Part shown: positions 5,762 to 16,976 of the stretch, piece after piece
Layout: each line of letters opens with the position of its first letter
Position numbering within the stretch: the first letter of the stretch is position 1
Origin: Pseudoalteromonas translucida KMM 520
Lineage (GTDB): Bacteria > Pseudomonadota > Gammaproteobacteria > Enterobacterales > Alteromonadaceae
Direction of reading: 5' to 3'
DNA: 32,000 nt
Assembly: GCF_001465295.1 (NCBI RefSeq)
Contig: NZ_CP011034.1
Span: forward strand, 1,680,001-1,712,000
Notes under the pieces: generated by a model
What the model saw: only the letters and a program-made list of their open reading frames with translations
The model's database searches: none
Told to the model about the DNA's origin: nothing
Position numbers and translations under genes: made by a program

Positions 5762-6724
5762 TTATAATCTTGAAAAAGGGCTAATAACACCATTAGCACC
5801 TTGTTGTAAAACATGGGTATATATTTGTGTAGTACGAACGTCACTGTGCCCAAGTTGTGTTTGTACTGTGCGTATATCAGCGCCGCTTTGCAGTAAGTGC
5901 GTAGCGAATGAGTGGCGCAAAGTATGTGGTGTAACGTGTTTATTAATGTGTGCATCAAAAGCCGCTTTTTTAACAGCACGCTGTAATTGCTTTTCATCAA
6001 TATGATGGCGCCTTAGTTGTTTACTCTCAGGATCAATACTGAGTTTATAAGATGGAAATACATATTGCCAACCCAGCTGTTTGTTATGATTTGGATATTT
6101 TTTACGTAATAAATGCGGCATATACACGCCACAAAACAGCGGGTTATTTAGGTCCAATTGTAAATAATTATCGACTAATTGAATTTGTGTTCGTATTTGT
6201 GGTATCAGCTCCTCTGCAAGCGTTACAACACGATTTTTGCCCCCTTTACCATCCCAAATTCGAACACAGTTATAATCAAAGTCAATATCTTGTATCCGCA
6301 AACGTAGTACCTCCATTAACCGCATACCGCTACCATAAAGTAGTGCACACGCTAAATAATGCTTTGTAATACAGTGTTTAAATAACGCTGAAACTTCTGT
6401 TTGTGTAAGCACAACGGGTAATTTTCTAGACCGTTCACTTTTTACAAAATCTAATGATAATGAGAGAGGACTTTTAATTATTTCTTTATATAGAAAACTT
6501 AGCGCATTCAATGCCTGGGATTGTGTGCCTTGCGCTACATTTTGCGAGTTTACTAAATGATTTAGATATAACTCCACTTGAGTATCCCCCATAGAGCTTG
6601 GGTGTTGCATATTATTAAAGCGGATATAGGCAGCTATCCAAAACAGATAAGCTTCAATAGTGCTCTTTGCATAACGCTTGCTATACATATGATCTTTAAT
6701 CATGGTTAGGAAGATAGACTTCAT
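5762..6724 (-). CDS. intI: integron integrase (tyrosine recombinase, IntI family)
   Basis: 320 aa. Tyrosine-recombinase boxes ([27 protein letters not shown]). The IntI-specific insertion ([35 protein letters not shown]) closely resembles VchIntIA/IntI1. Divergent from an attC-bearing array. Confidence 0.92.
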
Positions 6725-6966: not shown

Positions 6967-7665
6967 ATGAGTATATCAGCAGAGAAACGACATAGAGTTT
7001 TAATTAAATTTATGGATGAAGAATATGTAGAAAGCTTCATTAATGAAGGCCTGATATTTATGAATAATATCCAGTTCTTTCGAGAGTATGAAGATTCAGA
7101 TCCCGCATTACGTGGCGATGCGAAAGAAGGCCTTCGCGCAAGTTACTTGCCTGAAAATATTACATTAGAACTAAACGGTAGAACCTTGACTGCTCTTGTT
7201 GGTAAAGTTGAACTTCGAGAATCTCATCAAAATGAAACTAACATTTACAGCATGACCATTGTAAGTGATGCTGACATATTAGATGCAGGTGAAAAAGGTT
7301 TATATTTATCTGAAGATTTCAATAAATTTGGAAACAAAGCTGTTTTTATTGGTGGTAGCGATATCAATATTTTTTGGAACAGAGTCACTGAGGCGATAAA
7401 TAATAACGAAGATTTATTTACGTTAGAAGAAAACGTCGCGAAAAAGGTGACTTATGTAGATGCTAGTGAACATCATAGCGAATTAAATGTTTTCACTAAG
7501 TTTTCCGAGTACAAATGGCAACATGAATGGCGAGTTGCACTCAAACAAATTTCGTCGAGTGGTCCCTTAGAGTTAAGAGTCGGCAACCTATCAGACATTG
7601 CTCATATCACTGGTACTAAATCTTTAATACAGCAACCTTTAAAACTCGTGCAAAACAACTTATAA
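6967..7665 (+). CDS. hypothetical protein, integron cassette 1 (possibly DUF2971-like)
   Basis: 232 aa from ATG 6967 (alternative TTG at 6958). Stop TAA lies inside the attC R'' box. N-terminal K-F-x-x-x-x-F-I-x-x-G-x-I-F and C-terminal Y-K-W-Q-H-E-W-R pattern recalls DUF2971, from memory only. Confidence 0.7.
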   Translation: MSISAEKRHRVLIKFMDEEYVESFINEGLIFMNNIQFFREYEDSDPALRGDAKEGLRASYLPENITLELNGRTLTALVGKVELRESHQNETNIYSMTIVSDADILDAGEKGLYLSEDFNKFGNKAVFIGGSDINIFWNRVTEAINNNEDLFTLEENVAKKVTYVDASEHHSELNVFTKFSEYKWQHEWRVALKQISSSGPLELRVGNLSDIAHITGTKSLIQQPLKLVQNNL

Positions 7666-7685
7666 CAACACGCCCTGAGGTGGAC
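7660..7685 (+). other. attC of cassette 1, 5' arm (R''-L''), interrupted by an IS
   Basis: TTATAACAACACGCCCTGAGGTGGAC resembles the Vibrio VCR start TAACAAACGCCTCAAGAGGGAC. The same arm recurs at 12737, 13290 and 15717. Confidence 0.7.
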
Positions 7686-9215
7686 AGCAAGCACTAAAGT
7701 TCACTTTCCACCGCAAATTTTAACAGCGGTGATCCCTTACTTTTCAATGCGATTAAGTAAGTTGATTCATCGTAGGGCGTATGTGTTTTCCAGCACCTAA
7801 ATAGTATTCTTATCCACTTAAATGCTAATGATCTGATGATGGTATTATGGGGTTTTCCTTTGGCCTCTTGCTGCCGATAATATGCTTTTGCCCAAAATGA
7901 ATAACGCACAGATAATCCTGCCCATTCAACAAATGTTTGCCTTAAAAATTTAGTGCACGAATATCGCCAGTGTATCCATTCCTTCTTGCCACTGCGCTCG
8001 GTAACAGGGGCAATGCCTGCGTATTTTTGTATGTCAGCAGCGCACTTATAACGGTCACGATTTGACCCCATAGCGGCTAATAACCGAGGCGCTAATTGTG
8101 GTCCTGCACCTGGTAAACTATCAAAAATAGCGCGATCTGAATGTTGCTTATAAAGCGTTTTAATTTCGTTATCAAATCGGGTTATTGCCTGCATTAGATG
8201 TTTGAGTTGAGGAACGAGGCATTCAATAAGCAATAAGTTTGGCGTGATCACGGCCATATCATCGGTGAGAATTTCAGCATCCTTTATTTCTTTTATCCGC
8301 TTTTCATTAACGAGTGGGTAGCGGGAGTTATGTTGATTAAAGAAGTCGAGTAGTGTTTGCTTTCTCGCTTTTTTAGCGTGAGTAAGAGATGGCCAACGCA
8401 GTAAAAAGTCACAGAATATTTGAGTGTCCTTTTCTTTAAACCAATCAATCACGTGGGGGTAATAATTTTTTAGCGTTGTGGCTATTTTATTGGTTAAATT
8501 AACACGATCTTGTACTAATTTACGTCTGTATTCGACAAGCTGTGCAAGGCACCTAACTTCTTCTGTGTCAGGTCTAATAACCGTTAATTTATCCATGTGA
8601 AGTTGTAGAATTTCAACTTGAATAATCGCATCAGTAGGATCATCTTTAGCCCCGCTGTGCGAAAATGCTGCACGGTATTTGGCGACACTTGATGGGTTAA
8701 TCACAAATAATATAATGTGCTTAAATTTACTGAGTGCATATATAAGTGGACCTTTTTTTAGCTCACACGCGACAGCAACGGGTCTGCCGTTGTAGCGTTG
8801 TTTTAACTCAAGCGCCCATGCATTAATTGACTTAGGTTCAGAGGAAATCACACTTAAATGTTGTGTGTTTGTGTCGCGGTTTATTTCACAAATATCATGT
8901 TTACGGTCGGCCCAATCGATCCCGATAAGGGCAGCAAAACCTGAGACGTTAAAGGCTTCCATTTTGGGCCTCCTAGAGGTAAAGTGAAAGAATAAATAGA
9001 GGCTAATAGTGTTTCTCGCAAGTCTTATAGATAGTCGGCATTACGACAATCCCTGAGTATGCGTATTGAAACAAATTACTCCTGTTGATCCGAAAGTCTT
9101 GTTACAAACATTGATTGTTTCCGCTCAAATATTCGTGATCAACAGAAGCATATTCCATGTATTAATGAGATAGGTAAATACATTAATTAATGGAACGGAG
9201 TAACTATAAGTTGCT
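7686..9215 (-). mobile_element. intact IS110-family insertion sequence (variant A) inserted in attC
   Basis: Right boundary defined by comparing four attC/IS junctions. The left boundary (about 9215-9220) is tentative, from imperfect terminal inverted repeats AGCAAGCACTAAAGTTCAC (7686-7704) and GTAACTATAAGTTGCT (9200-9215). About 250 bp non-coding lies upstream of the transposase. Confidence 0.8.
7694..8962 (-). CDS. IS110-family transposase (DEDD RuvC-like N-domain plus C-terminal Ser recombinase-type domain)
   Basis: 422 aa. N-terminal IGIDWADRKHD, central AKDDPTDA, and C-terminal LPGAGPQLAPRLLA...YAGIAPVTERSGKK motif typical of Transposase_20/IS116-IS110-IS902. Confidence 0.92.
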   Translation of the reverse strand: MEAFNVSGFAALIGIDWADRKHDICEINRDTNTQHLSVISSEPKSINAWALELKQRYNGRPVAVACELKKGPLIYALSKFKHIILFVINPSSVAKYRAAFSHSGAKDDPTDAIIQVEILQLHMDKLTVIRPDTEEVRCLAQLVEYRRKLVQDRVNLTNKIATTLKNYYPHVIDWFKEKDTQIFCDFLLRWPSLTHAKKARKQTLLDFFNQHNSRYPLVNEKRIKEIKDAEILTDDMAVITPNLLLIECLVPQLKHLMQAITRFDNEIKTLYKQHSDRAIFDSLPGAGPQLAPRLLAAMGSNRDRYKCAADIQKYAGIAPVTERSGKKEWIHWRYSCTKFLRQTFVEWAGLSVRYSFWAKAYYRQQEAKGKPHNTIIRSLAFKWIRILFRCWKTHTPYDESTYLIALKSKGSPLLKFAVESEL

Positions 9216-9301
9216 CAAGCAGGACAAAATACAGTTGGTTTTTTGCTCGTGCCTCACTTATTTTAACCAACTATATTTTGCCTCTTAGCAAGGCGTTAGC
9301 T
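9216..9301 (+). other. attC of cassette 1, remaining loop and 3' arm (L'-R'), core GTTAGCT 9295-9301
   Basis: ...ACCAACTATATTTTGCCTCTTAGCAAGGCGTTAGCT. GGCG/CGCC and CCTC/GAGG segments pair with the 5' arm with bulged bases. The same 3' arm is seen at 14004-14035 and 22012-22041. Confidence 0.55.
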
Positions 9302-9351
9302 GACTAAACTGGCATTTGAACTAAATTCAGGATTTTGGAAAATGGATAAAT

Positions 9352-10395
9352 ATGAGTAACAATAAAACTGCTTTAAAAGTATCTGATAAAAGCATAGAAG
9401 AAGGAATTGCACAGGGTAACTTCAAAGAAGATGGAATCCTAATTCGTGATGTATCAAATGGACAAGTTGTAAAGGTGCTGAAGCAGAAAGAAGAAAGTTT
9501 GAACCACATCCCTTCAACCTTCATTCAGGTGCACCATAATTATATATATCAGGCCGACCTTTCTCCTATCCTTGAAGCTATTTCACATGAGAGAGAGTCA
9601 AGCCTATACAACGAATTAGAAGAACAATATAACTTAGTGTTAGATTATTTGGATTCTTTTAATACTTATGATACTGGAATTGAAAAAGTTCATCAGATCT
9701 GTCTTGAAATTTCAGTGTCATTTGATAATAAGATAAGGAGAGAGATTGAAGCTTTAGATATTGATGAGCTTGAAAAAATAGATACGGAAAGATTTGTTGG
9801 CTCATTAAATGCGTATGTTAAGATCCTATTCTCATATATCGTCAGTACCTACATCCTTCATAGGGATAAGTTCTCAAAAGATAAAGTAATTATATCTAAA
9901 ATTCTTAGTTTTGAAGGGGCTGTTAGATCACTCTATGAACAGGTTCTTGCTAAATCTAGCAAACAAAAGAACAAGGATGGGGAATTAATAAATATTATAC
10001 CCATGGAGGAGTCTCTGTACAGCATGTACTTGTTTGATGATAATTATGACCTCCATGACCTCGATCGACTAGTCTCGTATGATTCAAGGTTCTCAACATC
10101 ACTTCAAGTGATTAATTTCTTCAAAAAACACTTAAAAAATGGCAGCTTTCAGGGGGAAGGCTACGGCTATAGGGATAATGACGATGAATTAAAAATATCC
10201 ATTAGGTCTAAAAGGATATCAAAAGAAAGCAATAGAAATAAGATGGCTATCGTTCTTTTAAGAATACTAGAAGATATTGAGAAGTTGAAGGAAATCAGAG
10301 AAGAGGTAGTAAGCTTAAAAAATCTTTCAAATGAAGATGTATTGCAGAATTTCAGTGCTACGTCAGCTAACAAGAAAAATCAGTCGGACGCGTAA
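9352..10395 (+). CDS. hypothetical protein (347 aa, no domain recognised, predicted mostly helical, K/E-rich)
   Basis: Long ORF in a very AT-rich cassette, co-directional with and about 60 nt upstream of the ATPase gene. No recognisable motif. Confidence 0.7.
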   Translation: MSNNKTALKVSDKSIEEGIAQGNFKEDGILIRDVSNGQVVKVLKQKEESLNHIPSTFIQVHHNYIYQADLSPILEAISHERESSLYNELEEQYNLVLDYLDSFNTYDTGIEKVHQICLEISVSFDNKIRREIEALDIDELEKIDTERFVGSLNAYVKILFSYIVSTYILHRDKFSKDKVIISKILSFEGAVRSLYEQVLAKSSKQKNKDGELINIIPMEESLYSMYLFDDNYDLHDLDRLVSYDSRFSTSLQVINFFKKHLKNGSFQGEGYGYRDNDDELKISIRSKRISKESNRNKMAIVLLRILEDIEKLKEIREEVVSLKNLSNEDVLQNFSATSANKKNQSDA

Positions 10396-10421
10396 ACGCG
10401 CCGCTGTTTTTGGCGTTAGCA
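10391..10421 (+). other. possible vestigial attC / cassette junction (GGCGTTAGCA)
   Basis: cgTAAACGCGCCgctgtttttGGCGTTAGCa. The 3' part is identical to the ends of the array's attC 3' arms. GTTAGCA (10415-10421) is the exact complement of R'' TGCTAAC (12737-12743). Confidence 0.35.
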
Positions 10422-10456
10422 CTACAATGAATATTCATCAATTAACTGGAGAAGTT

Positions 10457-11779
10457 ATGATAAAGGAATTCTTTATTACAGAACTCTATGAAGAGAGAAA
10501 TGTAAGAATAAAATTCGACGATCCATATAAAATATTAGTAGCTGAGAATGGTTACGGTAAAACAACCATTTTAAACTCTTTTTATGCATTATTATCTGGT
10601 GAAATTTCGAAGCTAAGAAAAATTTCTTTTGAAACAGTAGGCATAGTGTTTAGCGATGGAGAGACTATATGCTTCAAAAAATCAGAGTTTGATGCTGATC
10701 TGGCTTTAATTCGGGAGCACCCTCTGTTTGAGCATATTGAATCAAGGTTTGGGCAGGAGTTCATTTTACAACTAATTGATGATGTTAGGCGTTTCCCAAG
10801 CCATAGAATGGAAATGTCACCTGTATTTAGGAGAGTGGTTGATGAACTTGACTTGCCAGCTAGGGTTTTAAAGGATAGCTTACGAGAAATTCGCCCAAAA
10901 GGCTTCAATAGAAAAAAAGTAAAGTCATCAACACAAAATAAATTAGAAAGTATTGCTAATAAAGTGAATTTGAAGACTTTATACCTTCCTACATATCGAA
11001 GAGTCGAAGAAGATATTAGAGCTTTTAATAGTTCCGGGAAGGGCACTTTAGATGAACATAGTTCAATCAATTTTGGGATGCGTGATGTTCAGCTGAGTAT
11101 TGAAAAAATAACCTCTGAAATTTTAAGTTCATCAGTTGAATGGTTTTCGAAAATAAATGGAGAAATGCTGAGTCAGTTAGTAAGTGGATTCTTAGTCACT
11201 CCTGAAATGAAGACTTCAATTTCTGATCCCAAAGCAGTTGAAATTGTGCTTGAGCGTATTGGTAAGCATATTTCTGAACCTCAGAAAAAACAAATATTAG
11301 ATTTAGTTGAGACAGGAAAAATTCAGAATGATCATGATCCTCTAATATATTTTGTAAGTAACCTTTTAAAGGTATATGAGCAACAGCAAGAAAACGATGA
11401 AGCGATTCAAAAATTCACAAATGTATGTAATAGGTATCTAGTAGATAAAGAAATTATTTACGATGAAAGTAATGTGACTATTGATATTGTTAGAAAAAAG
11501 AATAATAGAACGGTTGATATTGAAAGTTTGTCCTCTGGTGAAAAGCAAATTATTTCATTGTTTGCATTGTTGTATCTTCAAAAGAAAGAAAACCTAGCTA
11601 TTTTCTTTGATGAGCCTGAATTATCCCTATCTATGGAGTGGCAAAAGACTCTGCTACCTGACATTGTTAATTCTGGAAAATGTAAATTTCTTTTTTCAAC
11701 TACTCACTCTCCTTTTATTTTTGAAAATGAACTTGAAGATCATACTGTTGATTTGTTTGAGTACATTGAGGAATTGTAA
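10457..11779 (+). CDS. ABC/SMC-type AAA ATPase (AAA_15/AAA_21-like; PARIS AriA-like)
   Basis: Start at ATG 10457 with GGAG 5 nt upstream (track ORF 10331 extension rejected). Walker A AENGYGKTT, Q-loop-like LPTYRR, signature LSSGEKQ, Walker B IFFDEPELSLS, H-loop TTHSP. Confidence 0.85.
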   Translation: MIKEFFITELYEERNVRIKFDDPYKILVAENGYGKTTILNSFYALLSGEISKLRKISFETVGIVFSDGETICFKKSEFDADLALIREHPLFEHIESRFGQEFILQLIDDVRRFPSHRMEMSPVFRRVVDELDLPARVLKDSLREIRPKGFNRKKVKSSTQNKLESIANKVNLKTLYLPTYRRVEEDIRAFNSSGKGTLDEHSSINFGMRDVQLSIEKITSEILSSSVEWFSKINGEMLSQLVSGFLVTPEMKTSISDPKAVEIVLERIGKHISEPQKKQILDLVETGKIQNDHDPLIYFVSNLLKVYEQQQENDEAIQKFTNVCNRYLVDKEIIYDESNVTIDIVRKKNNRTVDIESLSSGEKQIISLFALLYLQKKENLAIFFDEPELSLSMEWQKTLLPDIVNSGKCKFLFSTTHSPFIFENELEDHTVDLFEYIEEL

Positions 11780-12726
11780 TGTCTAGAGTTGATGTGCTTA
11801 AAAAATCTAGGGATTCCATTTCAGTAAAGTTTTTAGAGTTTACTAGAATTGTCTCGAAAGGGGCTAATAAGGTAGCTGTATTTTTTGAGGGTGAAGACGA
11901 GAAATATTTTTCAGTAAGAATTAACAACATACGTCCGGACATACAATGGTCGGGCGTTAATTCTAAAGGGAAGTCAAATGTAATAAAGTTAAGAAATAAA
12001 ATACGGAAACACTCTACTTATCAGAATGCTTCGTGCTTATTCTTTGTAGATAGTGATTTTGATTGTAACTCCGATATAAATGGTTTTAATGATATATATA
12101 TAACGCCATGCTATTCAATCGAAAATCTCTTTTTGTCAAGCGCAACTTTTGAAAGAGTGATGACAGCTGAATTCGGTTTATCTGATGTTTCAGAAGAGCA
12201 TAAATGCTACCAAAGAGCTTTAGAGGTATATGACACGACCAAAGAGAGTTATCTACAAGTGATTAAGGAATTTAATTACCTTATTAGAGAATTAAGGAAT
12301 ATGGAAAAAAATGGGGCATTGAGTAGCAGACTTAATATTAATAATTTGAATATTAGTGACTTAATATCAGTGAATTTAGGGAGTGTTTCTAAAGAATACG
12401 ATGAAAGTAAACCAATAACTCTATTTCCAGAACTTCCTGAAAATCTCCAAGTTTCACTTCAAAGCTCTGTTGAGCACTTTAATGATCTCTGTTTTGAGCA
12501 ATGGTTTAGAGGGAAGCAACATTTGGAATTCCTTAGAGTCTTCTTAGGAAGAATTAAAGAAGATAGATGTAAGAAAAAAGACAGAACGATATTTCATGCT
12601 AAAGTCAATGTAAAATTGAGTTTAACTAAGGCAAATTGTATTTCAGAATTGAGTCAGTATGCAGATACACCGACTTGTTTAAAAGAGTTCTTAGAAAGAC
12701 AAATACTAGATAAATCAGTGGCCTAA
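11779..12726 (+). CDS. DUF4435 / OLD-type TOPRIM-like protein (PARIS AriB-like putative nuclease effector)
   Basis: Start overlaps the ATPase stop (TAATG). Motifs VFFEGEDEKYF, FFVDSDFD and CYSIENLF match my recollection of DUF4435 conserved blocks (EG-x-x-D, D-x-D, IEN). Confidence 0.75.
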   Translation: MSRVDVLKKSRDSISVKFLEFTRIVSKGANKVAVFFEGEDEKYFSVRINNIRPDIQWSGVNSKGKSNVIKLRNKIRKHSTYQNASCLFFVDSDFDCNSDINGFNDIYITPCYSIENLFLSSATFERVMTAEFGLSDVSEEHKCYQRALEVYDTTKESYLQVIKEFNYLIRELRNMEKNGALSSRLNINNLNISDLISVNLGSVSKEYDESKPITLFPELPENLQVSLQSSVEHFNDLCFEQWFRGKQHLEFLRVFLGRIKEDRCKKKDRTIFHAKVNVKLSLTKANCISELSQYADTPTCLKEFLERQILDKSVA

Positions 12727-12736
12727 TAAACAGTAG

Positions 12737-12762
12737 TGCTAACAACACGCCCTGAGGTGGAC
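12737..12762 (+). other. attC 5' arm of the ATPase/DUF4435 cassette (R'' TGCTAAC)
   Basis: TGCTAACAACACGCCCTGAGGTGGAC, 11 nt after the DUF4435 stop. Interrupted at the same nucleotide as attC 1. Confidence 0.7.
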
Positions 12763-13292
12763 AGCAAGCACTAAAGTTCACTTTCCACCGCAAATTTTAA
12801 CAGCGGTGATCCCTTACTTTTCAATGCGATTAAGTAAGTTGATTCATCGTAGGGCGTATGTGTTTTCCAGCACCTAAATAGTATTCTTATCCACTTAAAT
12901 GCTAATGATCTGATGATGGTATTATGGGGTTTTCCTTTGGCCTCTTGCTGCCGATAATATGCTTTTGCCCAAAATGAATAACGCACAGATAATCCTGCCC
13001 ATTCAACAAATGTTTGCCTTAAAAATTTAGTGCACGAATATCGCCAGTGTATCCATTCCTTCTTGCCACTGCGCTCGGTAACAGGGGCAATGCCTGCGTA
13101 TTTTTGTATGTCAGCAGCGCACTTATAACGGTCACGATTTGACCCCATAGCGGCTAATAACCGAGGCGCTAATTGTGGTCCTGCACCTGGTAAACTATCA
13201 AAAATAGCGCGATCTGAATGTTGCTTATAAAGCGTTTTAATTTCGTCATCAAATCGGGTTATTGCCTGCATTAGATGTTTGAGTTGAGGAAC
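12763..13292 (-). mobile_element. truncated copy of IS variant A (3' ~530 bp only)
   Basis: Essentially identical to 7686-8215 (I saw one substitution, N->D). Homology ends at GAGGAAC, where an attC-arm sequence begins. Confidence 0.85.
12771..13271 (-). pseudogene. IS110-family transposase fragment (C-terminal 166 aa)
   Basis: The ORF product equals the C-terminus of the 422-aa transposase. The N-terminal 256 codons are absent. Confidence 0.9.
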
Positions 13293-13311
13293 AACACGCC
13301 CTGAGGTGGAC
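13290..13311 (+). other. second attC 5'-arm copy (AACAACACGCCCTGAGGTGGAC) fused to the truncated IS
   Basis: The exact arm sequence reappears. The AAC at 13290-13292 is shared between IS-A sequence and the attC R'' box. Confidence 0.6.
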
Positions 13312-13990
13312 GACTAGTAAAATTTAGCTATTAATTGCAAATTTTAAAAGTGGTGAGCCTCTGCGTTTTAATGCAGCTAAATACGTCGATTCATCGTAGG
13401 GTGTATTCGTTTTCCAACACCTAAATACAATCCTTATCCATTTAAATGCCAGTGATCTAATAATGCTGCTATGCGGCTTACCCTTGGCTTTTTGTTGCTC
13501 ATAATACGCTTTAGCCCAAAATGAATAACGAATAGAAAAGCCTGCCCATTCTACAAATGTTTGCCTTAAAAAAGTGGGGCAACTATAACGCCAATGCGTC
13601 CACATCTTTTGACCACTGCGCTCAATAACAGGCGCTATACCAGCGTACTTTTGAAGTTCTGCAGCATCATTGTAACGCGCACGATTGCTCCCAAAAGCAA
13701 CAAGTAAACGTGGGGCGAGTTGTGGACCTGCACCGGGTAAGCTATCAAATATCTTTTTATCTTGCTGGGCTTTATAAGCCGATTTTATTGCTTTATCGAG
13801 CTTTTCAATACCTTTTAATAACACTTTAAACTGCGTAATAAGCACTTCAACGAGCATTTGATTAGGCACAATGACTCCTTCATCCAGAGTTAATGGCATC
13901 GCATTTTTAATACTGTCTAGTCGTGCATTATTGACCGTGCAATAGTGTGAGTTATGACTCTCGAAAAAGTCGAGTAAAAGTTGGCCATCG
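13312..13990 (-). mobile_element. 5'-truncated IS110-family element, variant B
   Basis: Diverged homologue of variant A, with clearly related protein but many substitutions. It starts at the same attC position but with different terminal bases (GACTAGTAA). Confidence 0.8.
13324..13986 (-). pseudogene. IS110-family transposase fragment (variant B, C-terminal ~200 aa)
   Basis: Track ORF 13324-13899 plus upstream homology without a start. The N-terminal catalytic domain is missing. Confidence 0.85.
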
Positions 13991-14003
13991 CTACGCGATT
14001 ATA

Positions 14004-14035
14004 GCCAACCATTTTTATCCGCTTAGCAAGGCGTT
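14004..14035 (+). other. attC 3' arm (…CCAACCATTTTTATCCGCTTAGCAAGGCGTT)
   Basis: Aligns with 9265-9297. Ends in the GTT that is duplicated by the MITE insertion. Confidence 0.6.
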
Positions 14036-14181
14036 GAGGCTGTAGAATTACTCTTTTTTAAGAAAAACAGCCTGTTTTATGGGTTCCAAATGCATTACCT
14101 AATGCTCTAAAAACGCTTAGAATTAATTGTAGGAGCTCGTTTTTTAATAGATTTTGGCTGTTGGAGTTATTCTACAGCCTC
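14036..14181. mobile_element. 146-bp MITE-like element with 18-bp terminal inverted repeats inserted in the attC core
   Basis: TIRs GAGGCTGTAGAATTACTC (14036-14053) and GAGTTATTCTACAGCCTC (14164-14181) match 17/18. Flanked by direct GTT (14033-14035 and 14182-14184). Removing it restores CTTAGCAAGGCGTTAGCTG, as at 9285-9302. Confidence 0.6.
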
Positions 14182-14252
14182 GTTAGCTGGCTTTTGATAT
14201 TAGTCACACCTCAAAGTAAGTTGTATTTAATTAATATAGAAAGGACTCAGAA

Positions 14253-14672
14253 ATGAAAAAATGGATTATCGTACTGCTAATAAGTTTTAGCTTTATTTCA
14301 ATTCAGTTTGCAAATGCCACTAGTGGAAGAACAAACTCATCAGGCTGTCACAATAGTAAAAAAGTTGGCTATCATTGCCATGGGACACCTAAAACATCAA
14401 GTTATAAGCCTAAAAGTACGACTTATACATCAAAAAGTAAAACTACAACTAGCTACTCCTCAGCAAGTAAAAAAATTAATGAAATAGATAGCCTTGTTCA
14501 AGGTATTCAAATTCAACTTAATGTGCTCGGTTATAAAGTAGGAAAAGCTGATGGTATTCTGGGTAAAAACACAATATCAGCCATTAAAAAGTTTCAAGCC
14601 AATAGTCATCTCTTGGTTGATGGCAAGCCAACAACGGACTTGTTGGTAAAATTAGTCTTAGCCAATAGTTAA
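14253..14672 (+). CDS. secreted YHYH-motif / peptidoglycan-binding (PG_binding_1) domain protein, integron cassette
   Basis: Signal peptide MKKWIIVLLISFSFISIQFANA, GCHNSKKVGYHCH motif, S/T/K-rich linker, and C-terminal LGYKVGKADGILGKNTISAIKKFQ PG-binding repeat. AGGA RBS. Confidence 0.8.
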   Translation: MKKWIIVLLISFSFISIQFANATSGRTNSSGCHNSKKVGYHCHGTPKTSSYKPKSTTYTSKSKTTTSYSSASKKINEIDSLVQGIQIQLNVLGYKVGKADGILGKNTISAIKKFQANSHLLVDGKPTTDLLVKLVLANS

Positions 14673-15136
14673 GTGTAATCAGCCAACTAATCGGGTAGCC
14701 GGAGGTCTCTAACCTCCAGCCCCCACACCACCCATCATGCGGGTCCGCAATGTGCGGTTCATCTCCCGTGACGAATACCGATCCAAATATCTCTCAATGA
14801 CACTAAACCTTGTGACGCTAAATAGTCATTACCTAGCGCAATGTTAATTCTTTTTTTTTTTGAGCTTCTACAAGGGCCTTTACTGGTGATACCACAGGCT
14901 ATGGCGAGCCGTTCGCTAACACCTAGTTTTATTAAACTGCGTATTAGTGCGTGGTTTACGCTATTGCCGCCAGTAGCACATTCATATCCTACGGCGGATC
15001 CAATGATCTAAATCCACCGTTAGCTGATAAGTATTGGCTACTAGATAATAGTGTCGTATCAGCTAGTTCGTCTTTAGCCTACGCTTGATATGATATTCCC
15101 ATCGACAACTGATGCGCATCACGCTACACTTATTAC

Positions 15137-15416
15137 ATGATTAAATCTTTTAAGCACAAAGGCCTTAAAAAAATACTTCCAAACTGGCAGCGTCTCCGGT
15201 ATTCAGGCAAAGCATGAACGTAAATTACGTATGCAACTTGCCGCAATAGATACCGCACAAGAAATTGATGATATCAATTTACCAGGCTTTAAGTTACATC
15301 CATTAAAAGGGAATCGTGACGGAGTTTGGTCTATTACTGTAAATGGTAATTGGCGTATTACTTTCGAGTTTATCGATGGTAATGCTTATATTTTGAACTA
15401 TGAGGACTATCACTAA
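15137..15416 (+). pseudogene. higB: HigB-family (RelE/ParE superfamily) toxin, +1 frameshift in an A7 run
   Basis: ATG 15137 reads MIKSFKHKGLKK, then stops early. Deleting one A of the run 15167-15173 restores ...KKYFQTGSVSGIQAKHERKLRMQL... continuous with track ORF 15231-15416. Total length is 280 nt, i.e. 3n+1. Confidence 0.8.
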
Positions 15417-15712
15417 TGAGTATGCATCATAATCCACCACATCCTGGGGAGTTTATCTATGACGTTTATTTGGAGCCTTCTGGCTTTAGCTGCCGTTATT
15501 TAGCTAAACAGTTGGATGTTGCATCGTCGACTTTAAATAGAGTTCTAAAAGGTCAAAGCGCTATCTCACCTGAAATGGCACTTCGCTTATCTAAAGCAAT
15601 TGGCAGAACTCCTGAGAGTTGGCTATCAATGCAAGATAACTACGATCTCTGGCATGCTAAACAGAAAATAAATTTAACCAATGTCCACTGTGTAAATTTT
15701 GCAGGGGCATAA
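15416..15712 (+). CDS. higA: HigA-family antitoxin (XRE HTH)
   Basis: 98 aa. PHPGEFI... and HTH LAKQLDVASSTLNRVLKGQSAISPEMALRLSKAIG typical of HigA/VapI. Start overlaps the higB stop (TAATG). Confidence 0.85.
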   Translation: MSMHHNPPHPGEFIYDVYLEPSGFSCRYLAKQLDVASSTLNRVLKGQSAISPEMALRLSKAIGRTPESWLSMQDNYDLWHAKQKINLTNVHCVNFAGA

Positions 15713-15716
15713 AAAT

Positions 15717-15740
15717 ATAGCAATACGCCCTGAGGTGGAC
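15717..15740 (+). other. degenerate attC 5' arm (ATAGCAATACGCCCTGAGGTGGAC)
   Basis: Matches the arm consensus except two substitutions, one of which destroys the AAC of R''. Followed by an IS end. Confidence 0.6.
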
Positions 15741-15975
15741 AGCAAGTATTAAAACTTACTTTCCATCGCAAATTTTAAAAGTGGTGAGCCTCTGTGTTTT
15801 AAGGCTGCTAAATACGTTGATTCATCTTAGCGTTTTCCAAAAAATAAAAGGACAGGCATAAAATATTTGCCAGTCCCTTTCTAACACCTAAATACGCTCC
15901 TTATCTATTTAAATGCCAGTGAGCTAATAATGCTGTTATGTGGTTTACTTTTGGCTTTGTTACTTAAAATGCACT
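15741..15975 (-). mobile_element. remnant (3' end only) of an IS110-family element, variant C; end of recognisable integron array
   Basis: Aligns with 13330-13520 of variant B (GCAAATTTTAAAAGTGGTGAGCCTCTG...), with a small deletion and a 42-bp insertion. No intact ORF. Confidence 0.7.
15841..15882. repeat. REP-like hairpin insertion (GGACAGGCA-N9-TGCCAGTCC)
   Basis: Present in variant C but absent from the aligned variant B sequence (CGTTTTCCA|ACACCTAAATAC). Its core GGACAGGCATAAAA matches the left flank of the Y1 transposase at 26712-26725. Confidence 0.55.
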
Positions 15976-16091
15976 GTGGTGAATTCAATCAGCTATTTAC
16001 AACCCCCAGCCTGCACAGCTGGGTTTGTACTAAACATGTGGGTAGGATAACGCGCTAATGAGCCCACACTGTGCATATAATTTGGCTATGG

Positions 16092-16976
16092 TTATGTTGT
16101 TTTTTTAGCTTGGTCAATAAAGTCATTTAAGTAGTCTATATGCTGCTCGTTGTTACGAATACCGACAAATATTTGTTTGTTAATACCTTGCTCTCCAAAC
16201 CTTAGGCTTTTGATAGGCATTGTTTTAGAATACTCGTCTACTAGCCAGCCAGGTAAAGCACAAATACCGCGACCCGCAGCGACCATTTGCAGCATAATTT
16301 CGGTTGTTTCAATGGTTTTATGTTTTTTTACTGAGCACTTTGCCGGATTAAGAAACTGGCTAAAAATATCAAGCCTTAGTGGCTCTACAGGGTAACTAAA
16401 CAATACTTCTTCGCTTAGTTGCTCGGGTAACACAAACTCTTGCGTTGCAAGTTTATGGGATTTAGCAACTACGAGTCTGTGTTCGTAGTTAAACACAGGT
16501 ATATAGCTTATTTTAGGTTTAAAAAGTGGATCGGGTGTTATTAGTACGTCAATTTCGTAGCTTAGTAATGCACCTAAAGCGCCAAACTGAAACTCCTGCT
16601 TTACGTCAATGTCTATGTCTGGCCAATGCTCTAAATAGGGCTCAATTACTCTAAGTAACCATTGGTAACAAGGATGGCACTCCATGCCAATGCGTAGCGA
16701 GCCCAGTTCACCTTTGGCAATTTGATTTAGTAATAATTCAGTATGTACAAACTGCGGTAATACTCTGTTTGCCAGTGTTTGAATGTGCTCACCAGCCGCT
16801 GTAAGGCGCAAATTTCGACCGTCTTTTTTCCATATTGGCGTACCAACTTGGCCTTCTAGTTTTTTAATACTGTGACTTAGTGCCGATTGCGATAAGTACA
16901 ACGAATTTGCTGCCTTAGTTAGGGTTCCATGTTCTTTTATGGCGGTTAGTATTTCTAAGTGGATCCTTTCCAGCAC
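16092..16976 (-). CDS. metR: LysR-family transcriptional regulator, MetR-like
   Basis: 294 aa. N-terminal HTH ...SQSALSHSIKKLE... and RLTAAGE..LANRVLPQ pattern like MetR. Adjacent to methionine-synthase genes. Confidence 0.65.
   Translation of the reverse strand: MLERIHLEILTAIKEHGTLTKAANSLYLSQSALSHSIKKLEGQVGTPIWKKDGRNLRLTAAGEHIQTLANRVLPQFVHTELLLNQIAKGELGSLRIGMECHPCYQWLLRVIEPYLEHWPDIDIDVKQEFQFGALGALLSYEIDVLITPDPLFKPKISYIPVFNYEHRLVVAKSHKLATQEFVLPEQLSEEVLFSYPVEPLRLDIFSQFLNPAKCSVKKHKTIETTEIMLQMVAAGRGICALPGWLVDEYSKTMPIKSLRFGEQGINKQIFVGIRNNEQHIDYLNDFIDQAKKTT

What the first reader, a model, noticed from the sequence alone, without database searches (positions are those of the whole stretch)
7660..15750. 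Four independent IS110-family insertions at exactly the same nucleotide of attC 5' arms
- The junctions at 7685/7686, 12762/12763, 13311/13312 and 15740/15741 all read ...ACGCCCTGAGGTGGAC | IS end.
- All are in the same orientation, with the transposase antisense to the cassettes.
- The IS ends differ (AGCAAGCAC, AGCAAGCAC, GACTAGTAA, AGCAAGTAT) and the transposase sequences are diverged. At least three variants (A, B, C) have therefore targeted the same position of this attC family.
- attC-specific targeting is described for the IS1111-attC group. Here, however, the transposase stop lies only 8 nt from one IS end and the about 250-bp non-coding region is upstream of the gene. As I recall, that layout is IS110-subgroup-like rather than IS1111-like.
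- Every attC whose 5' arm I could identify in this array is disrupted, which should immobilise the cassettes.
Basis: partly seen in the sequence, partly recalled or inferred. Interest (0 to 1): 0.7.

Follow-up and report, generated by a model that had tools for sequence, protein, structure and literature searches.

The report
attC-targeting IS110 element, junction misplaced
The repeated 16-base "target" is the insertion sequence's own end: these IS110-type elements insert 19 bases further out, at the edge of integron attC sites, apparently guided by an RNA they encode, in the same spot as the unrelated IS1111-attC group.

Summary
The four ACGCCCTGAGGTGGAC copies are real and lie at the stated coordinates. 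They are not attC 5' arms. They are the last bases of the IS right end.

- **Empty site.** A metagenome scaffold (L100) carries the same cassette with an uninterrupted attC. It reads GCTAAC-AA-GTTGCTTAAACGG and lacks the 16-mer.
- **Relatives.** In 98 related loci the 12-mer core occurs 79 times, always at an IS right end. That includes non-attC relatives such as ISEsa2. None of 25 unoccupied attC targets contains it.

The complete element is window 7667-9209 (1541 bp plus a duplicated AA/TT core). It sits between the attC R'' box (RYYYAAC) and L''. Copy A2 is at the same position of a second attC, and remnant C closes the array. Copy B is not in an attC: its end abuts the interior of A2 at a look-alike site.

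- The non-coding region is 247 nt upstream and 27 nt downstream of the transposase gene.
- There are no subterminal inverted repeats.
- The transposase is 50% identical to ISCps4, 48% to ISEsa2, and essentially unrelated to ISKpn4.

The upstream region folds into a covariation-supported RNA. Its loops match the target and the IS ends, and they covary across the clade. ISKpn4 inserts at the same attC position, so this is convergence.

The parts
5762..6724 (-). Integron integrase gene intI; defines the array that starts at about 6900.
   Evidence: TIGR02249 integron integrase, 517.7 bits (cutoff 265). Pfam Phage_integrase plus SAM_4.
7660..7666 (+). R'' core site (TTATAAC) of attC1, left attached to cassette 1 by the insertion.
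   Evidence: Homology to full-length relatives starts at 7667. Unoccupied attCs read RYYYAAC-AA-G....
7667..9209 (-). IS copy A1, the only complete copy. It is 1541 bp plus the AA (TT in IS orientation) core, which is present at both ends.
   Evidence: Aligns end to end (positions 1-1543) with L001, L002, L003, L006 (two copies), L008 and L010. Junction alignment.
7667..7685 (-). Right-end terminal 19 nt (GTCCACCTCAGGGCGTGTT in IS orientation). It is the left-donor sequence and the spacer of the putative junction promoter.
   Evidence: Invariant in all relatives. Absent from the empty attC2 and from 25 unoccupied attC targets. CTCAGGGCGTG is also present at the right end of ISEsa2-type elements with other targets.
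7694..8962 (-). DEDD transposase/recombinase, 422 aa.
   Evidence: PF01548 plus PF02371. NF033542 'IS110 family RNA-guided transposase', 169 bits against a cutoff of 140. D16, E67, D108, D111 and S324 are conserved in the alignment with IS621, IS1111A and ISKpn4.
8963..9207 (-). Left-end non-coding region (247 nt counting the core), proposed to encode a bridge/seeker RNA.
   Evidence: Arm-1 stem has 7 pairs with compensatory changes, up to 13 of 24 sequences at one pair. No Rfam family matches.
9121..9129 (-). Candidate left target guide (UUUGAGCGG), same sense as the attC L'' segment CTTGAGCAA.
   Evidence: On the 5' side of the arm-1 internal loop. Guides match their own flank better than shuffled flanks in 5000 of 5000 permutations, mean 5.87 against 4.87. 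Variant guides track variant flanks.
9099..9104 (-). Candidate right target guide (UAACAA), complementary to core TT plus GTTA, which is the R'' box.
   Evidence: On the 3' side of the arm-1 loop. Covaries across the clade: CCGCUU with AAGCGG, CGGCUU with AAGCCG, CUAACAUAG with CTATGTTAG, CUAACUUAG with CTAAGTTAG.
9046..9057 (-). Candidate left donor guide (CUCAGGGAUUGU), same sense as the right-end terminus CTCAGGGCGTGT (10 of 12).
   Evidence: The same arrangement is seen in ISEsa2.
9025..9030 (-). Candidate right donor guide (CUAUAA), complementary to core TT plus ATAG at the left-end start.
   Evidence: Relatives have CUAUAU with ATATAG, and CCAUAA or CCAUAU with TTATGG or ATATGG.
9208..9301 (+). 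Remainder of attC1: L'', inner stem, loop, L' and R' (GTTAGCT at 9295-9301).
   Evidence: The L'' segment GTTGCTCAAGC pairs with the 3' arm GCTTAGCAAGG-like segment and covaries in 10 or more attCs. The reconstructed bottom strand folds with R''/R' paired and single-base bulges.
8211..8226 (-). Look-alike target inside IS-A (TTGAATGCC-TC-GTTCC), at the position where IS-B's right end is joined in copy A2.
   Evidence: Compare the canonical TTGAATGAC-TT-GTTAT of L017.
12737..12743 (+). R'' core site (TGCTAAC) of attC2.
   Evidence: Identical sequence in the empty site of L100, where it is followed by AAGTTGCTTAAACGG.
12744..13292 (-). IS copy A2. Only the right-end-proximal 549 nt remain (IS positions 995-1543).
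   Evidence: 99.8% identical to A1.
13293..13977 (-). IS copy B, a right-end-proximal fragment of about 685 nt. Its terminus with the AA core abuts the interior of A2.
   Evidence: The translated fragment matches PF02371.
13978..14039 (+). Distal part of attC2 (inner stem, loop, L', R' GTTGAGG), joined to IS-B by a deletion at an AAAAGTTGG microhomology.
   Evidence: Colinear with L100 3489-3549.
15722..15965 (-). IS copy C, a decayed right-end remnant with a 44-nt internal insertion, at the end of the array.
   Evidence: The same remnant lies next to the same higBA cassette in an independent sample, L102.

Best explanation
The window holds a chromosomal integron invaded by an IS110-type (not IS1111-type) insertion sequence of 1541 bp.

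**Insertion site (shown by sequence comparison).** The element inserts without target duplication, other than a shared TT core (AA on the + strand). In IS orientation the insertion point is ...YTTRARYRMC-TT|GTTAK..., the boundary between the R'' core site and L'' of attC. The transposase gene is always antisense to the cassettes.

**Mechanism (inferred by analogy with IS621 and ISEc21).** The element excises as a circle. Joining right end to left end creates a promoter (TTGCTG, 17 nt, TATAGT). This transcribes a roughly 200-nt RNA from the left-end non-coding region. Two loops of that RNA pair with the target (UUUGAGCGG with L''; UAACAA with TT+GTTA) and with the joined IS ends (CUCAGGGAUUGU; CUAUAA). 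A DEDD/Ser recombinase then exchanges strands at the core.

**History of this array (inferred).**
1. IS-A entered attC1 and attC2.
2. IS-B entered a look-alike site inside IS-A2.
3. A deletion of about 1.9 kb removed both left ends and the 5' part of attC2.
4. IS-C is an old footprint closing the array.
For: **Boundaries**
- Full-length relatives align exactly over positions 1-1543.
- Left-end flanks are variable attC arms that covary with their own 3' arms, whereas the right-end 19-mer is invariant.
- The empty attC2 in L100 reads GCTAAC-AA-GTTGCTTAAACGG.
- None of 25 unoccupied attC targets contains the 12-mer. All 79 copies of the 12-mer lie at IS right ends.

**Family placement**
- Pfam and NCBIfam matches; DEDD plus Ser conserved.
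- 50% identity to ISCps4, 48% to ISEsa2; ISKpn4 only E = 0.058.
- 247-nt left-end and 27-nt right-end non-coding regions; no inverted repeat longer than 5 nt.
- This layout matches the IS110/IS1111 distinction described in PMC11187229 and PMC11208160.

**RNA**
- Compensatory changes in the arm-1 stem.
- The right target guide covaries with the target across sub-clades.
- The left target guide matches its own flank better than shuffled flanks, 0 of 5000 permutations reaching the observed score.

**Nested insertion.** B's terminus abuts A2 at the look-alike site TTGAATGCC-TC-GTTCC.
Against: - There are no expression, circle-junction or transposition data.
- The second RNA arm is almost invariant, so covariation says nothing about it.
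- In this sub-clade the candidate left target guide stops 1 nt short of the core and does not pair with it, unlike IS621. Its register shifts by 1 nt between sub-clades.
- The permutation test does not correct for relatedness of the elements.
- For ISEsa2 the cores read at the two ends are not identical, so the exact cleavage positions in this clade are uncertain.
- The nested-insertion scenario for B rests on a single junction.
Confidence: 0.85

Rival explanations
1. One reading: ACGCCCTGAGGTGGAC is the conserved 5' arm of this attC family, and four IS copies cut it after GGAC.
For: - The 16-mer resembles VCR-type attC arms.
- It can pair with GGCGT near R' in a fold of equal energy.
- It always lies next to a cassette 3' end.
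Against: - The empty attC2 lacks it.
- None of 25 unoccupied attCs has it, and every copy is IS-linked.
- It is present in non-attC relatives.
- B's copy is flanked by IS-A interior, not by a cassette.
- The genuine 5' arm, which covaries with the 3' arm, lies on the other side of the IS.
Confidence: 0.02
2. Target choice is made by the protein recognising the folded attC hairpin, as the integron integrase does. The RNA complementarities would then be coincidental or serve only donor recognition.
For: - attC sites are structured.
- Most left-end flanks contain full attC palindromes.
- The left target guide pairing is imperfect and misses the core.
Against: - The right target guide covaries with the target in four different sub-clades, including non-attC targets.
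- Several occupied sites keep only the roughly 16-nt L''-TT-GTTA motif without a recognisable hairpin (L003, L056, L078, L081).
- B inserted into a linear look-alike site inside an IS.
- RNA guidance has been shown experimentally for other family members (PMC11208160, PMC11187229).
Confidence: 0.08
3. The A2/B junction is not a nested insertion. It would be a deletion, either IS-end-mediated or by integrase acting at an AAC/GTT secondary site, that fused IS-B (originally in a downstream attC) to the interior of IS-A2 and removed the intervening cassettes.
For: - The junction falls at ...GGAAC|AA..., an AAC triplet like the one ending R''.
- Right-end-only remnants are very common in related genomes.
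Against: - L100 shows attC2 followed directly by the same downstream cassette as in the window. No extra cassette is therefore missing, and the retained attC distal half is attC2's own.
- The IS-A site resembles the canonical target at 12 of 16 positions.
Confidence: 0.2
4. The right-end terminus is a captured half-attC that makes the IS (or IS plus cassette) mobilisable by the integron integrase as a cassette-like unit.
For: The right end reads GTCC-N11-(T/C)-TTGTTA once joined to the flank, the same spacing as a genuine attC arm.
Against: - The CTCAGGGCGTG terminus is ancestral to the clade and present in elements with unrelated targets.
- No partner arm exists in the IS.
- No copy is bounded like a cassette.
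Confidence: 0.03

Closest known systems
IS1111-attC group (ISPa21, ISKpn4, ISPst6, ISPa25; Tetu & Holmes 2008; Post & Hall 2009)
   Same: - DEDD transposase superfamily.
- Site- and orientation-specific insertion at one end of attC, with the transposase antisense to the cassettes.
- ISKpn4 in a class 1 integron sits at TCTAACAA|TTCAAGCC, the same R''/L'' boundary.
- No target duplication.
- From my recollection of the Tetu & Holmes abstract, which could not be read here: degenerate footprints at array termini.
- RNA-guided targeting has been shown for ISKpn4 and ISPst6 (PMC11187229).
   Different: - The transposase is essentially unrelated in sequence (E = 0.058 to ISKpn4, 17% in the alignment) and is 422 aa against 347 aa.
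- The guide-RNA region is upstream (247 nt) rather than downstream (about 284 nt in ISKpn4).
- No subterminal inverted repeats, whereas ISKpn4 has GGACTCTCCCC/GGGGAGAGTCC.
- Hosts are marine Alteromonadales with Vibrio-cholerae-repeat-like long attCs, not Pseudomonas or class 1 integrons.
ISCps4 and ISEsa2 (ISfinder IS110-family entries; sequences from PMC11187229 supplement and PGAP annotation)
   Same: - Closest named relatives, at 50% and 48% identity over the full length, with the same roughly 70-aa insertion relative to IS621.
- ISEsa2 shares the layout, the CTCAGGGCGTG right-end terminus, the TATAG left-end start, and the positions of the guide segments.
   Different: - ISEsa2-type elements read a different target (AA+GCGGAC), with CCGCUU in place of UAACAA, and are not attC-associated.
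- ISCps4's target was not examined.
IS621 / ISEc21 bridge (seeker) RNA systems
   Same: - IS110-type layout: left-end-encoded structured RNA with a putative junction promoter.
- A guide on the 3' side of a loop complementary to core plus right target, and a guide on the 5' side of the same sense as the left target.
- An analogous pair of guides for the donor (PMC11208160).
   Different: - About 22-25% identity.
- The left target guide here does not cover the core.
- The guide is G/U-rich and would tolerate purine or pyrimidine variation in attC through wobble pairing (inference).
- No experimental data for this element.
Group IIC-attC introns
   Same: Another mobile-element class that homes to attC sites, antisense to the cassettes.
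   Different: They are retroelements with an unrelated mechanism. No intron signature was found in the window.

Membership tests
IS110 family (DEDD transposases) | N-terminal RuvC-like DEDD domain and C-terminal Transposase_20 domain with a conserved Ser. | tested here: met
   PF01548 E = 2e-24 and PF02371 E = 4e-17. NF033542, 169 bits against a cutoff of 140. D16, E67, D108, D111 and S324 are invariant in the alignment.
IS110 family (DEDD transposases) | Site-specific insertion without target duplication beyond a shared core. | tested here: met
   Occupied against empty attC2: only the AA/TT dinucleotide is shared.
IS110 family (DEDD transposases) | Circular intermediate that assembles a promoter across the joined ends. 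| not testable with these tools
   The joined ends would read TTGCTG-17 nt-TATAGT. In relatives the -35 is TTGACG. This is read from the sequence only.
IS110 subgroup (as opposed to IS1111) | Long non-coding region upstream of the transposase gene and a short right end. | tested here: met
   247 nt upstream, 27 nt downstream. Criterion from PMC11187229 and PMC11208160.
IS110 subgroup (as opposed to IS1111) | No subterminal inverted repeats of 7-17 bp. | tested here: met
   The longest match between the first and last 70 nt is 5 nt.
IS1111-attC group | Transposase related over its full length to IS1111, ISPa21 or ISKpn4. | tested here: not met
   ISKpn4 E = 0.058 over 85 aa. IS1111A 22% over 201 aa.
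IS1111-attC group | Non-coding region / seeker RNA downstream of the transposase gene, plus subterminal inverted repeats. | tested here: not met
   ISKpn4 has both; this element has neither.
IS1111-attC group | Insertion at a fixed point at one end of attC, in a fixed orientation. | tested here: met
   All right-end flanks of this sub-clade read GTTA(K), with a few decayed remnants differing by 1-2 nt. Left-end flanks are attC L'' arms. The position is the same as for ISKpn4.
Bridge/seeker-RNA-guided recombinases (IS621-like) | Structured non-coding RNA with conserved stems in the non-coding end. | tested here: met
   Arm-1 stem: 7 pairs with compensatory changes. Arm 2 is invariant and therefore uninformative.
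Bridge/seeker-RNA-guided recombinases (IS621-like) | Loop segment complementary to core plus right target, covarying with the target. | tested here: met
   UAACAA with TTGTTA. Four other guide/target pairs occupy the homologous position.
Bridge/seeker-RNA-guided recombinases (IS621-like) | Loop segment of the same sense as left target plus core. | tested here: inconclusive
   Own-flank matches exceed all 5000 shuffles and variants track their flanks. However, the match ends before the core and the register varies.
Bridge/seeker-RNA-guided recombinases (IS621-like) | The RNA is expressed, binds the recombinase and is required for transposition. | not testable with these tools
   Needs RNA-seq, pull-down and transposition assays.
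Integron attC site (the target) | R''-L''...L'-R' imperfect palindrome with extrahelical bases, downstream of a cassette ORF in an intI-linked array. | tested here: met
   intI. Intact attC2 in L100. The reconstructed attC1 folds with R''/R' paired and single-base bulges. 25 similar sites occur in related arrays.

The most novel reading that the evidence does not exclude
A widespread marine lineage of IS110-type, left-end bridge-RNA elements appears undescribed. All 120 listed of 7999 scored homologues are at least 67% identical. Hosts include Pseudoalteromonas, Colwellia, Aliiglaciecola and Aliivibrio, with a possible sister group in cyanobacteria. The lineage has converged independently on the same R''/L'' boundary of attC used by the IS1111-attC group. 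Its G/U-rich target guide tolerates attC polymorphism, and guide variants track attC sub-families. If so, this is a natural series of bridge-RNA reprogramming events aimed at integron cassettes.
Probability: 0.5. Interest if true: 0.6.

Novelty: new variant of a known kind. Interest (0 to 1): 0.5.

Why it matters
- **Annotation.** The right end of this IS family looks like a Vibrio-cholerae-repeat-type attC arm. It can therefore be mistaken for attC sequence, and real insertions next to R'' can be missed. A Shewanella integron survey reported IS110-family elements in arrays but no IS interrupting attC sites (PMC9229058).
- **Integron biology.** A second, unrelated DEDD lineage disables attC sites of sedentary chromosomal integrons and leaves footprints at array ends. 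Here it freezes a cassette that carries a PARIS-like defence system.
- **RNA-guided recombination.** The clade offers natural guide/target covariation, including a guide that reads the integrase's own R'' core site. It is also a case of convergence between left-end-encoded and right-end-encoded guide RNAs.

Tried and rejected
- **Rfam.** The gathering-threshold scan of the window and permissive scans of 7600-9350 and 13950-16100 gave no family, only chance-level hits.
- **Unbiased complementarity search with G:U allowed.** Too noisy alone; it became interpretable only with the alignment and relatives.
- **First two attempts to extract the left target guide by regular expression.** They missed many elements or used wrong registers, and were replaced.
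- **Folding energy of the two attC reconstructions.** Not discriminating.
- **Tetu & Holmes 2008 (PMC2447020).** Not held, so the IS1111-attC insertion point was read directly from ISKpn4 in a plasmid.
- **Exact-protein look-up of the cassette 1 ORF.** Not on record, so there is no empty site for attC1.
- **Guess that 14673-15138 (- strand) is a group II intron remnant.** No Pfam or Rfam support; dropped.
- **Motif TTAGGATGGGTGTC.** Seen next to truncated copies elsewhere, but present in the window only at chance level.
- **Integrase-mediated deletion as the general source of right-end-only remnants.** Their upstream junctions do not end in AAC/GTT.
- **ISfinder.** Could not be queried.

Full report
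**1. The observation**

ACGCCCTGAGGTGGAC occurs four times on the + strand, at 7670, 12747, 13296 and 15725, with none expected by chance. Each copy is followed by sequence from one insertion-sequence family.

- The only complete transposase ORF is 7694-8962 on the - strand (422 aa). It carries DEDD_Tnp_IS110 and Transposase_20 domains. It passes the NCBIfam cutoff for 'IS110 family RNA-guided transposase'.
- The array lies downstream of an integron integrase gene at 5762-6724.
- A BLAST of the complete element against the window shows the four copies:

| Copy | Identity to A1 | What remains |
|---|---|---|
| A1 | reference | complete element |
| A2 | 99.8% | last 549 nt |
| B | about 76% | right-end fragment |
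| C | about 79% | decayed right-end remnant |

**2. Where the element really ends**

I collected 41 loci from genomes and 54 from metagenomes that encode relatives of the transposase.

- **Invariant right-end flank.** In every relative of this sub-clade (Pseudoalteromonas, Aliiglaciecola, Colwellia, Cognaticolwellia, an Aliivibrio MAG and many uncultured sources), the variable ...CTTGCT/G is followed by an invariant GTCCACCTCAGGGCGTGTT and then GTTA. Repeat-collapsed contigs of 1.2-1.6 kb end exactly at ...GTGTTGTTA.
- **Full-length alignment.** Complete relatives align with window 7667-9209 from the first to the last base.
- **Variable left-end flank.** On the left-end side the flank is different in every copy. 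It is a complete attC minus its R'' box: 3' arm, inner stem, loop, inner stem ending in GTCC, then about 11 variable bases, then C-TT.
- **Covariation.** Those variable bases covary with the 3' arm of the same attC. Examples are TTGCTAAG with CTTGAGCAA, GCATTAAG with TTTAAATGC, and CGCTAAGG with CTTGAGCG. They are therefore the genuine 5' arm.
- **Unoccupied attCs.** In the same arrays these read ...GTCC-N(9-15)-C-TT-GTTAG.
- **Counts over 456 kb.** There are 25 unoccupied sites, none containing CCTCAGGGCGTG. There are 79 copies of that 12-mer with at most one mismatch, every one at the right end of this IS or a more distant relative.

**3. The empty site**

An exact-protein look-up of the last gene of cassette 2 found a metagenome scaffold, L100. 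It carries the same three-gene cassette followed directly by the same downstream cassette. Its attC reads gtgctaac-aa-gttgcttaaacggaataaaaaagttggccatcgctacgcgattatagccaaccatttttatccgcttagcaaggcgttgagg.

The window is identical up to GCTAAC-AA and again from AAAAGTTGGCCATCGC onward. Between those points it holds CACGCCCTGAGGTGGAC... (IS-A2), then IS-B. The 16-mer is therefore IS sequence. The insertion point is between R'' (RYYYAAC) and L'', with AA (TT in IS orientation) as the only shared bases.

The corrected junctions are 7666|7667, 12743|12744, 13292|13293 and 15721|15722.

**4. Copy B is not in an attC**

B's terminus, including its AA core, abuts ...GAGGAAC of IS-A2 at IS position 995. 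In A1 the same position continues GAGGCATTC.

In IS orientation the A sequence there reads TTGAATGCC-TC-GTTCC. It matches the canonical target (for example TTGAATGAC-TT-GTTAT in L017) at 12 of 16 positions.

L100 shows that nothing else lay between cassette 2 and the next cassette. The simplest history is therefore:
1. IS-A inserted into attC2.
2. IS-B inserted into the look-alike site in IS-A.
3. One deletion of about 1.9 kb, at an AAAAGTTGG microhomology, removed both left ends and the first roughly 26 nt of attC2.

This is an inference from one junction. An IS-end-mediated deletion is the alternative.

Copy C, with its degenerate junction ATAGC-AA-TACGCC, closes the array. It is found next to the same higBA cassette in an independent sample, L102, so it is an older footprint.

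**5. What kind of element it is**

- **Layout.** The non-coding region is 247 nt upstream and 27 nt downstream of the gene, and the ends share no inverted repeat longer than 5 nt. Both Siddiquee et al. (PMC11187229) and Durrant et al. (PMC11208160) use exactly these features to separate IS110-type from IS1111-type elements.
- **Sequence comparison.** I used ISfinder transposase sequences printed in the supplement of PMC11187229. The protein is 50% identical to ISCps4. It is 25% identical to IS621 over its C-terminal part. It is 22% identical to IS1111A. It matches ISKpn4 of the IS1111-attC group only at E = 0.058.
- **Plasmid search.** The closest named element is ISEsa2, at 48% identity.
- **Catalytic residues.** The DEDD residues and the catalytic-domain Ser align.

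**6. Comparison with IS1111-attC**

I located ISKpn4 in a class 1 integron (intI1-aadB-qacL-ISKpn4) and read its junctions.

- Its transposase gene is also antisense to the cassettes.
- It sits at TCTAACAA|TTCAAGCC, the same R''/L'' boundary.
- Its roughly 284-nt non-coding region lies downstream of the gene, and it has subterminal repeats (GGACTCTCCCC/GGGGAGAGTCC).

The two lineages have therefore converged on the same point of attC with opposite internal layouts.

**7. How the target is probably chosen**

- **Structure.** An alignment of 24 distinct left-end regions gives a long stem with compensatory changes at seven pairs, in up to 13 of 24 sequences (nine sequences). No Rfam family matches.
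- **Right target guide.** On the 3' side of the loop enclosed by that stem lies UAACAA, the complement of TT+GTTA (core plus R'' box). At the homologous position other sub-clades carry different guides that match their own targets:

| Sub-clade | Guide | Flank read |
|---|---|---|
| This element | UAACAA | TT+GTTA |
| ISEsa2-type | CCGCUU | AA+GCGG |
| One ISEsa2-type variant | CGGCUU | AA+GCCG |
| Cyanobacterial | CUAACAUAG | CTATGTTAG |
| Cyanobacterial variant | CUAACUUAG | CTAAGTTAG |

- **Left target guide.** On the 5' side lies a segment of the same sense as the L'' arm. Examples are UUUGAGCGG here, UUUGAAUGA in L017 (flank TTTGAATGA), GCAUGCGU in L058 (flank GCATGCGA) and UGAUUUAC in L056 (flank TAATTTAC). 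Own-flank matches exceed all 5000 shuffled pairings, with a mean run of 5.87 against 4.87. Relatedness is not controlled in this test.
- **Donor guides.** The second arm carries CUCAGGGAUUGU, which matches the right-end terminus CTCAGGGCGTGT at 10 of 12 positions. It also carries CUAUAA, the complement of TT+ATAG at the left-end start. Corresponding changes occur in other sub-clades.
- **Junction promoter.** Joining right end to left end gives TTGCTG-17 nt-TATAGT.

This is the IS621 architecture as described. There is one difference: the left target guide does not reach the core in this sub-clade.

Everything in this section is computational. RNA expression, circle formation and guide dependence are inferred.

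**8.

The right-end terminus resembles a Vibrio-cholerae-repeat-type attC arm and always lies next to R''. It is ancestral to the clade, however. ISEsa2-type elements with unrelated targets end in the same CTCAGGGCGTG. It is not a captured attC half.

**9. Verdict**

It is wrong on the insertion point, on the nature of the shared sequence, and on copy B.
- An attC-targeting IS110-type lineage was not found in the held literature, and PGAP names it only generically. ISfinder could not be checked.
- I rate it a new variant of a known kind, of moderate interest.

Noticed in passing
window 9296-12743: Cassette 2 is a three-gene cassette. It holds an unknown 347-aa ORF plus a PARIS-like defence pair: AriA (AAA_15/AAA_21 ATPase, PADLOC E = 7e-31) and AriB (DUF4435, E = 5e-32). 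Both of its bounding attCs carry an IS insertion.
   Followed up: partly
window 15139-15415: The higB toxin gene is frameshifted in an A-run near 15168. Joining the two frames restores a full-length HigB-like match (PF05015, E = 6e-25). The higA gene (15416-15712) is intact. The copy in L102 is also disrupted.
   Followed up: partly
window 14673-15138: About 460 nt with no convincing ORF, Pfam or Rfam match lie between the PG_binding cassette and higBA. The stretch ends in an R'-like CCACCGTTAGCTGA near 15019. It may be degenerate cassettes or attC remnants.
   Followed up: partly
window 14034-14190: An 18-nt inverted repeat (GAGGCTGTAGAATTACTC / GAGTTATTCTACAGCCTC, 94%) is followed by TCGTTAGCTGG. 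It looks like a short ORF-less cassette or a second attC type. The same GAGGCTGTAGAATTACTC start is seen in L004 and L045, and a related R' (CAGGCTCGTTAGCTGAC) opens L100.
   Followed up: no
L012, L014, L018, L020-L022, L032, L033, L036, L037, L083, L091 (e.g. L020:3932-3987): A small hairpin motif, TTAGGATGGGTGTC(ATCCTAA), is sometimes part of a repeated unit of about 100 nt. It occurs about 29 times in related arrays and often lies 10-25 nt upstream of the point where right-end-only IS remnants are truncated. It may be the end of another mobile element. It is absent from the window beyond chance.
   Followed up: partly
L013-L038 and L079-L095 (genome and metagenome loci): Truncated copies of this IS almost always keep the right end and lose the left end (at least 25 cases, with variable break points). 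The cause of this bias is unexplained. The junctions do not look integrase-mediated.
   Followed up: partly
L015, L064, L066, L068 (cyanobacterial MAGs and metagenome contigs); L027 (Saccharibacteria MAG): Relatives at about 50-65% identity have right ends ...CCTCAGGGCCT followed by ATGTTAGG. The cyanobacterial-type loci carry a matching guide CUAACAUAG. The GTTAGG flank suggests that they too may target an R''-like core site.
   Followed up: partly
L028 (- strand, about 393), Pseudoalteromonas sp. H105: An ISEsa2-type relative (right end ...TTGAATGCCTCAGGGCGTG, flank AAGCAGCC) coexists in the same genome as the attC-targeting type. Two guide specificities of one clade therefore occur in one host.
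   Followed up: no
L098 / L099 (Salmonella and Klebsiella plasmids): ISKpn4 sits in the qacL attC immediately next to a res/tniQ module. The remaining attC half is followed by Tn402-like tni genes rather than a 3' conserved segment.
   Followed up: no
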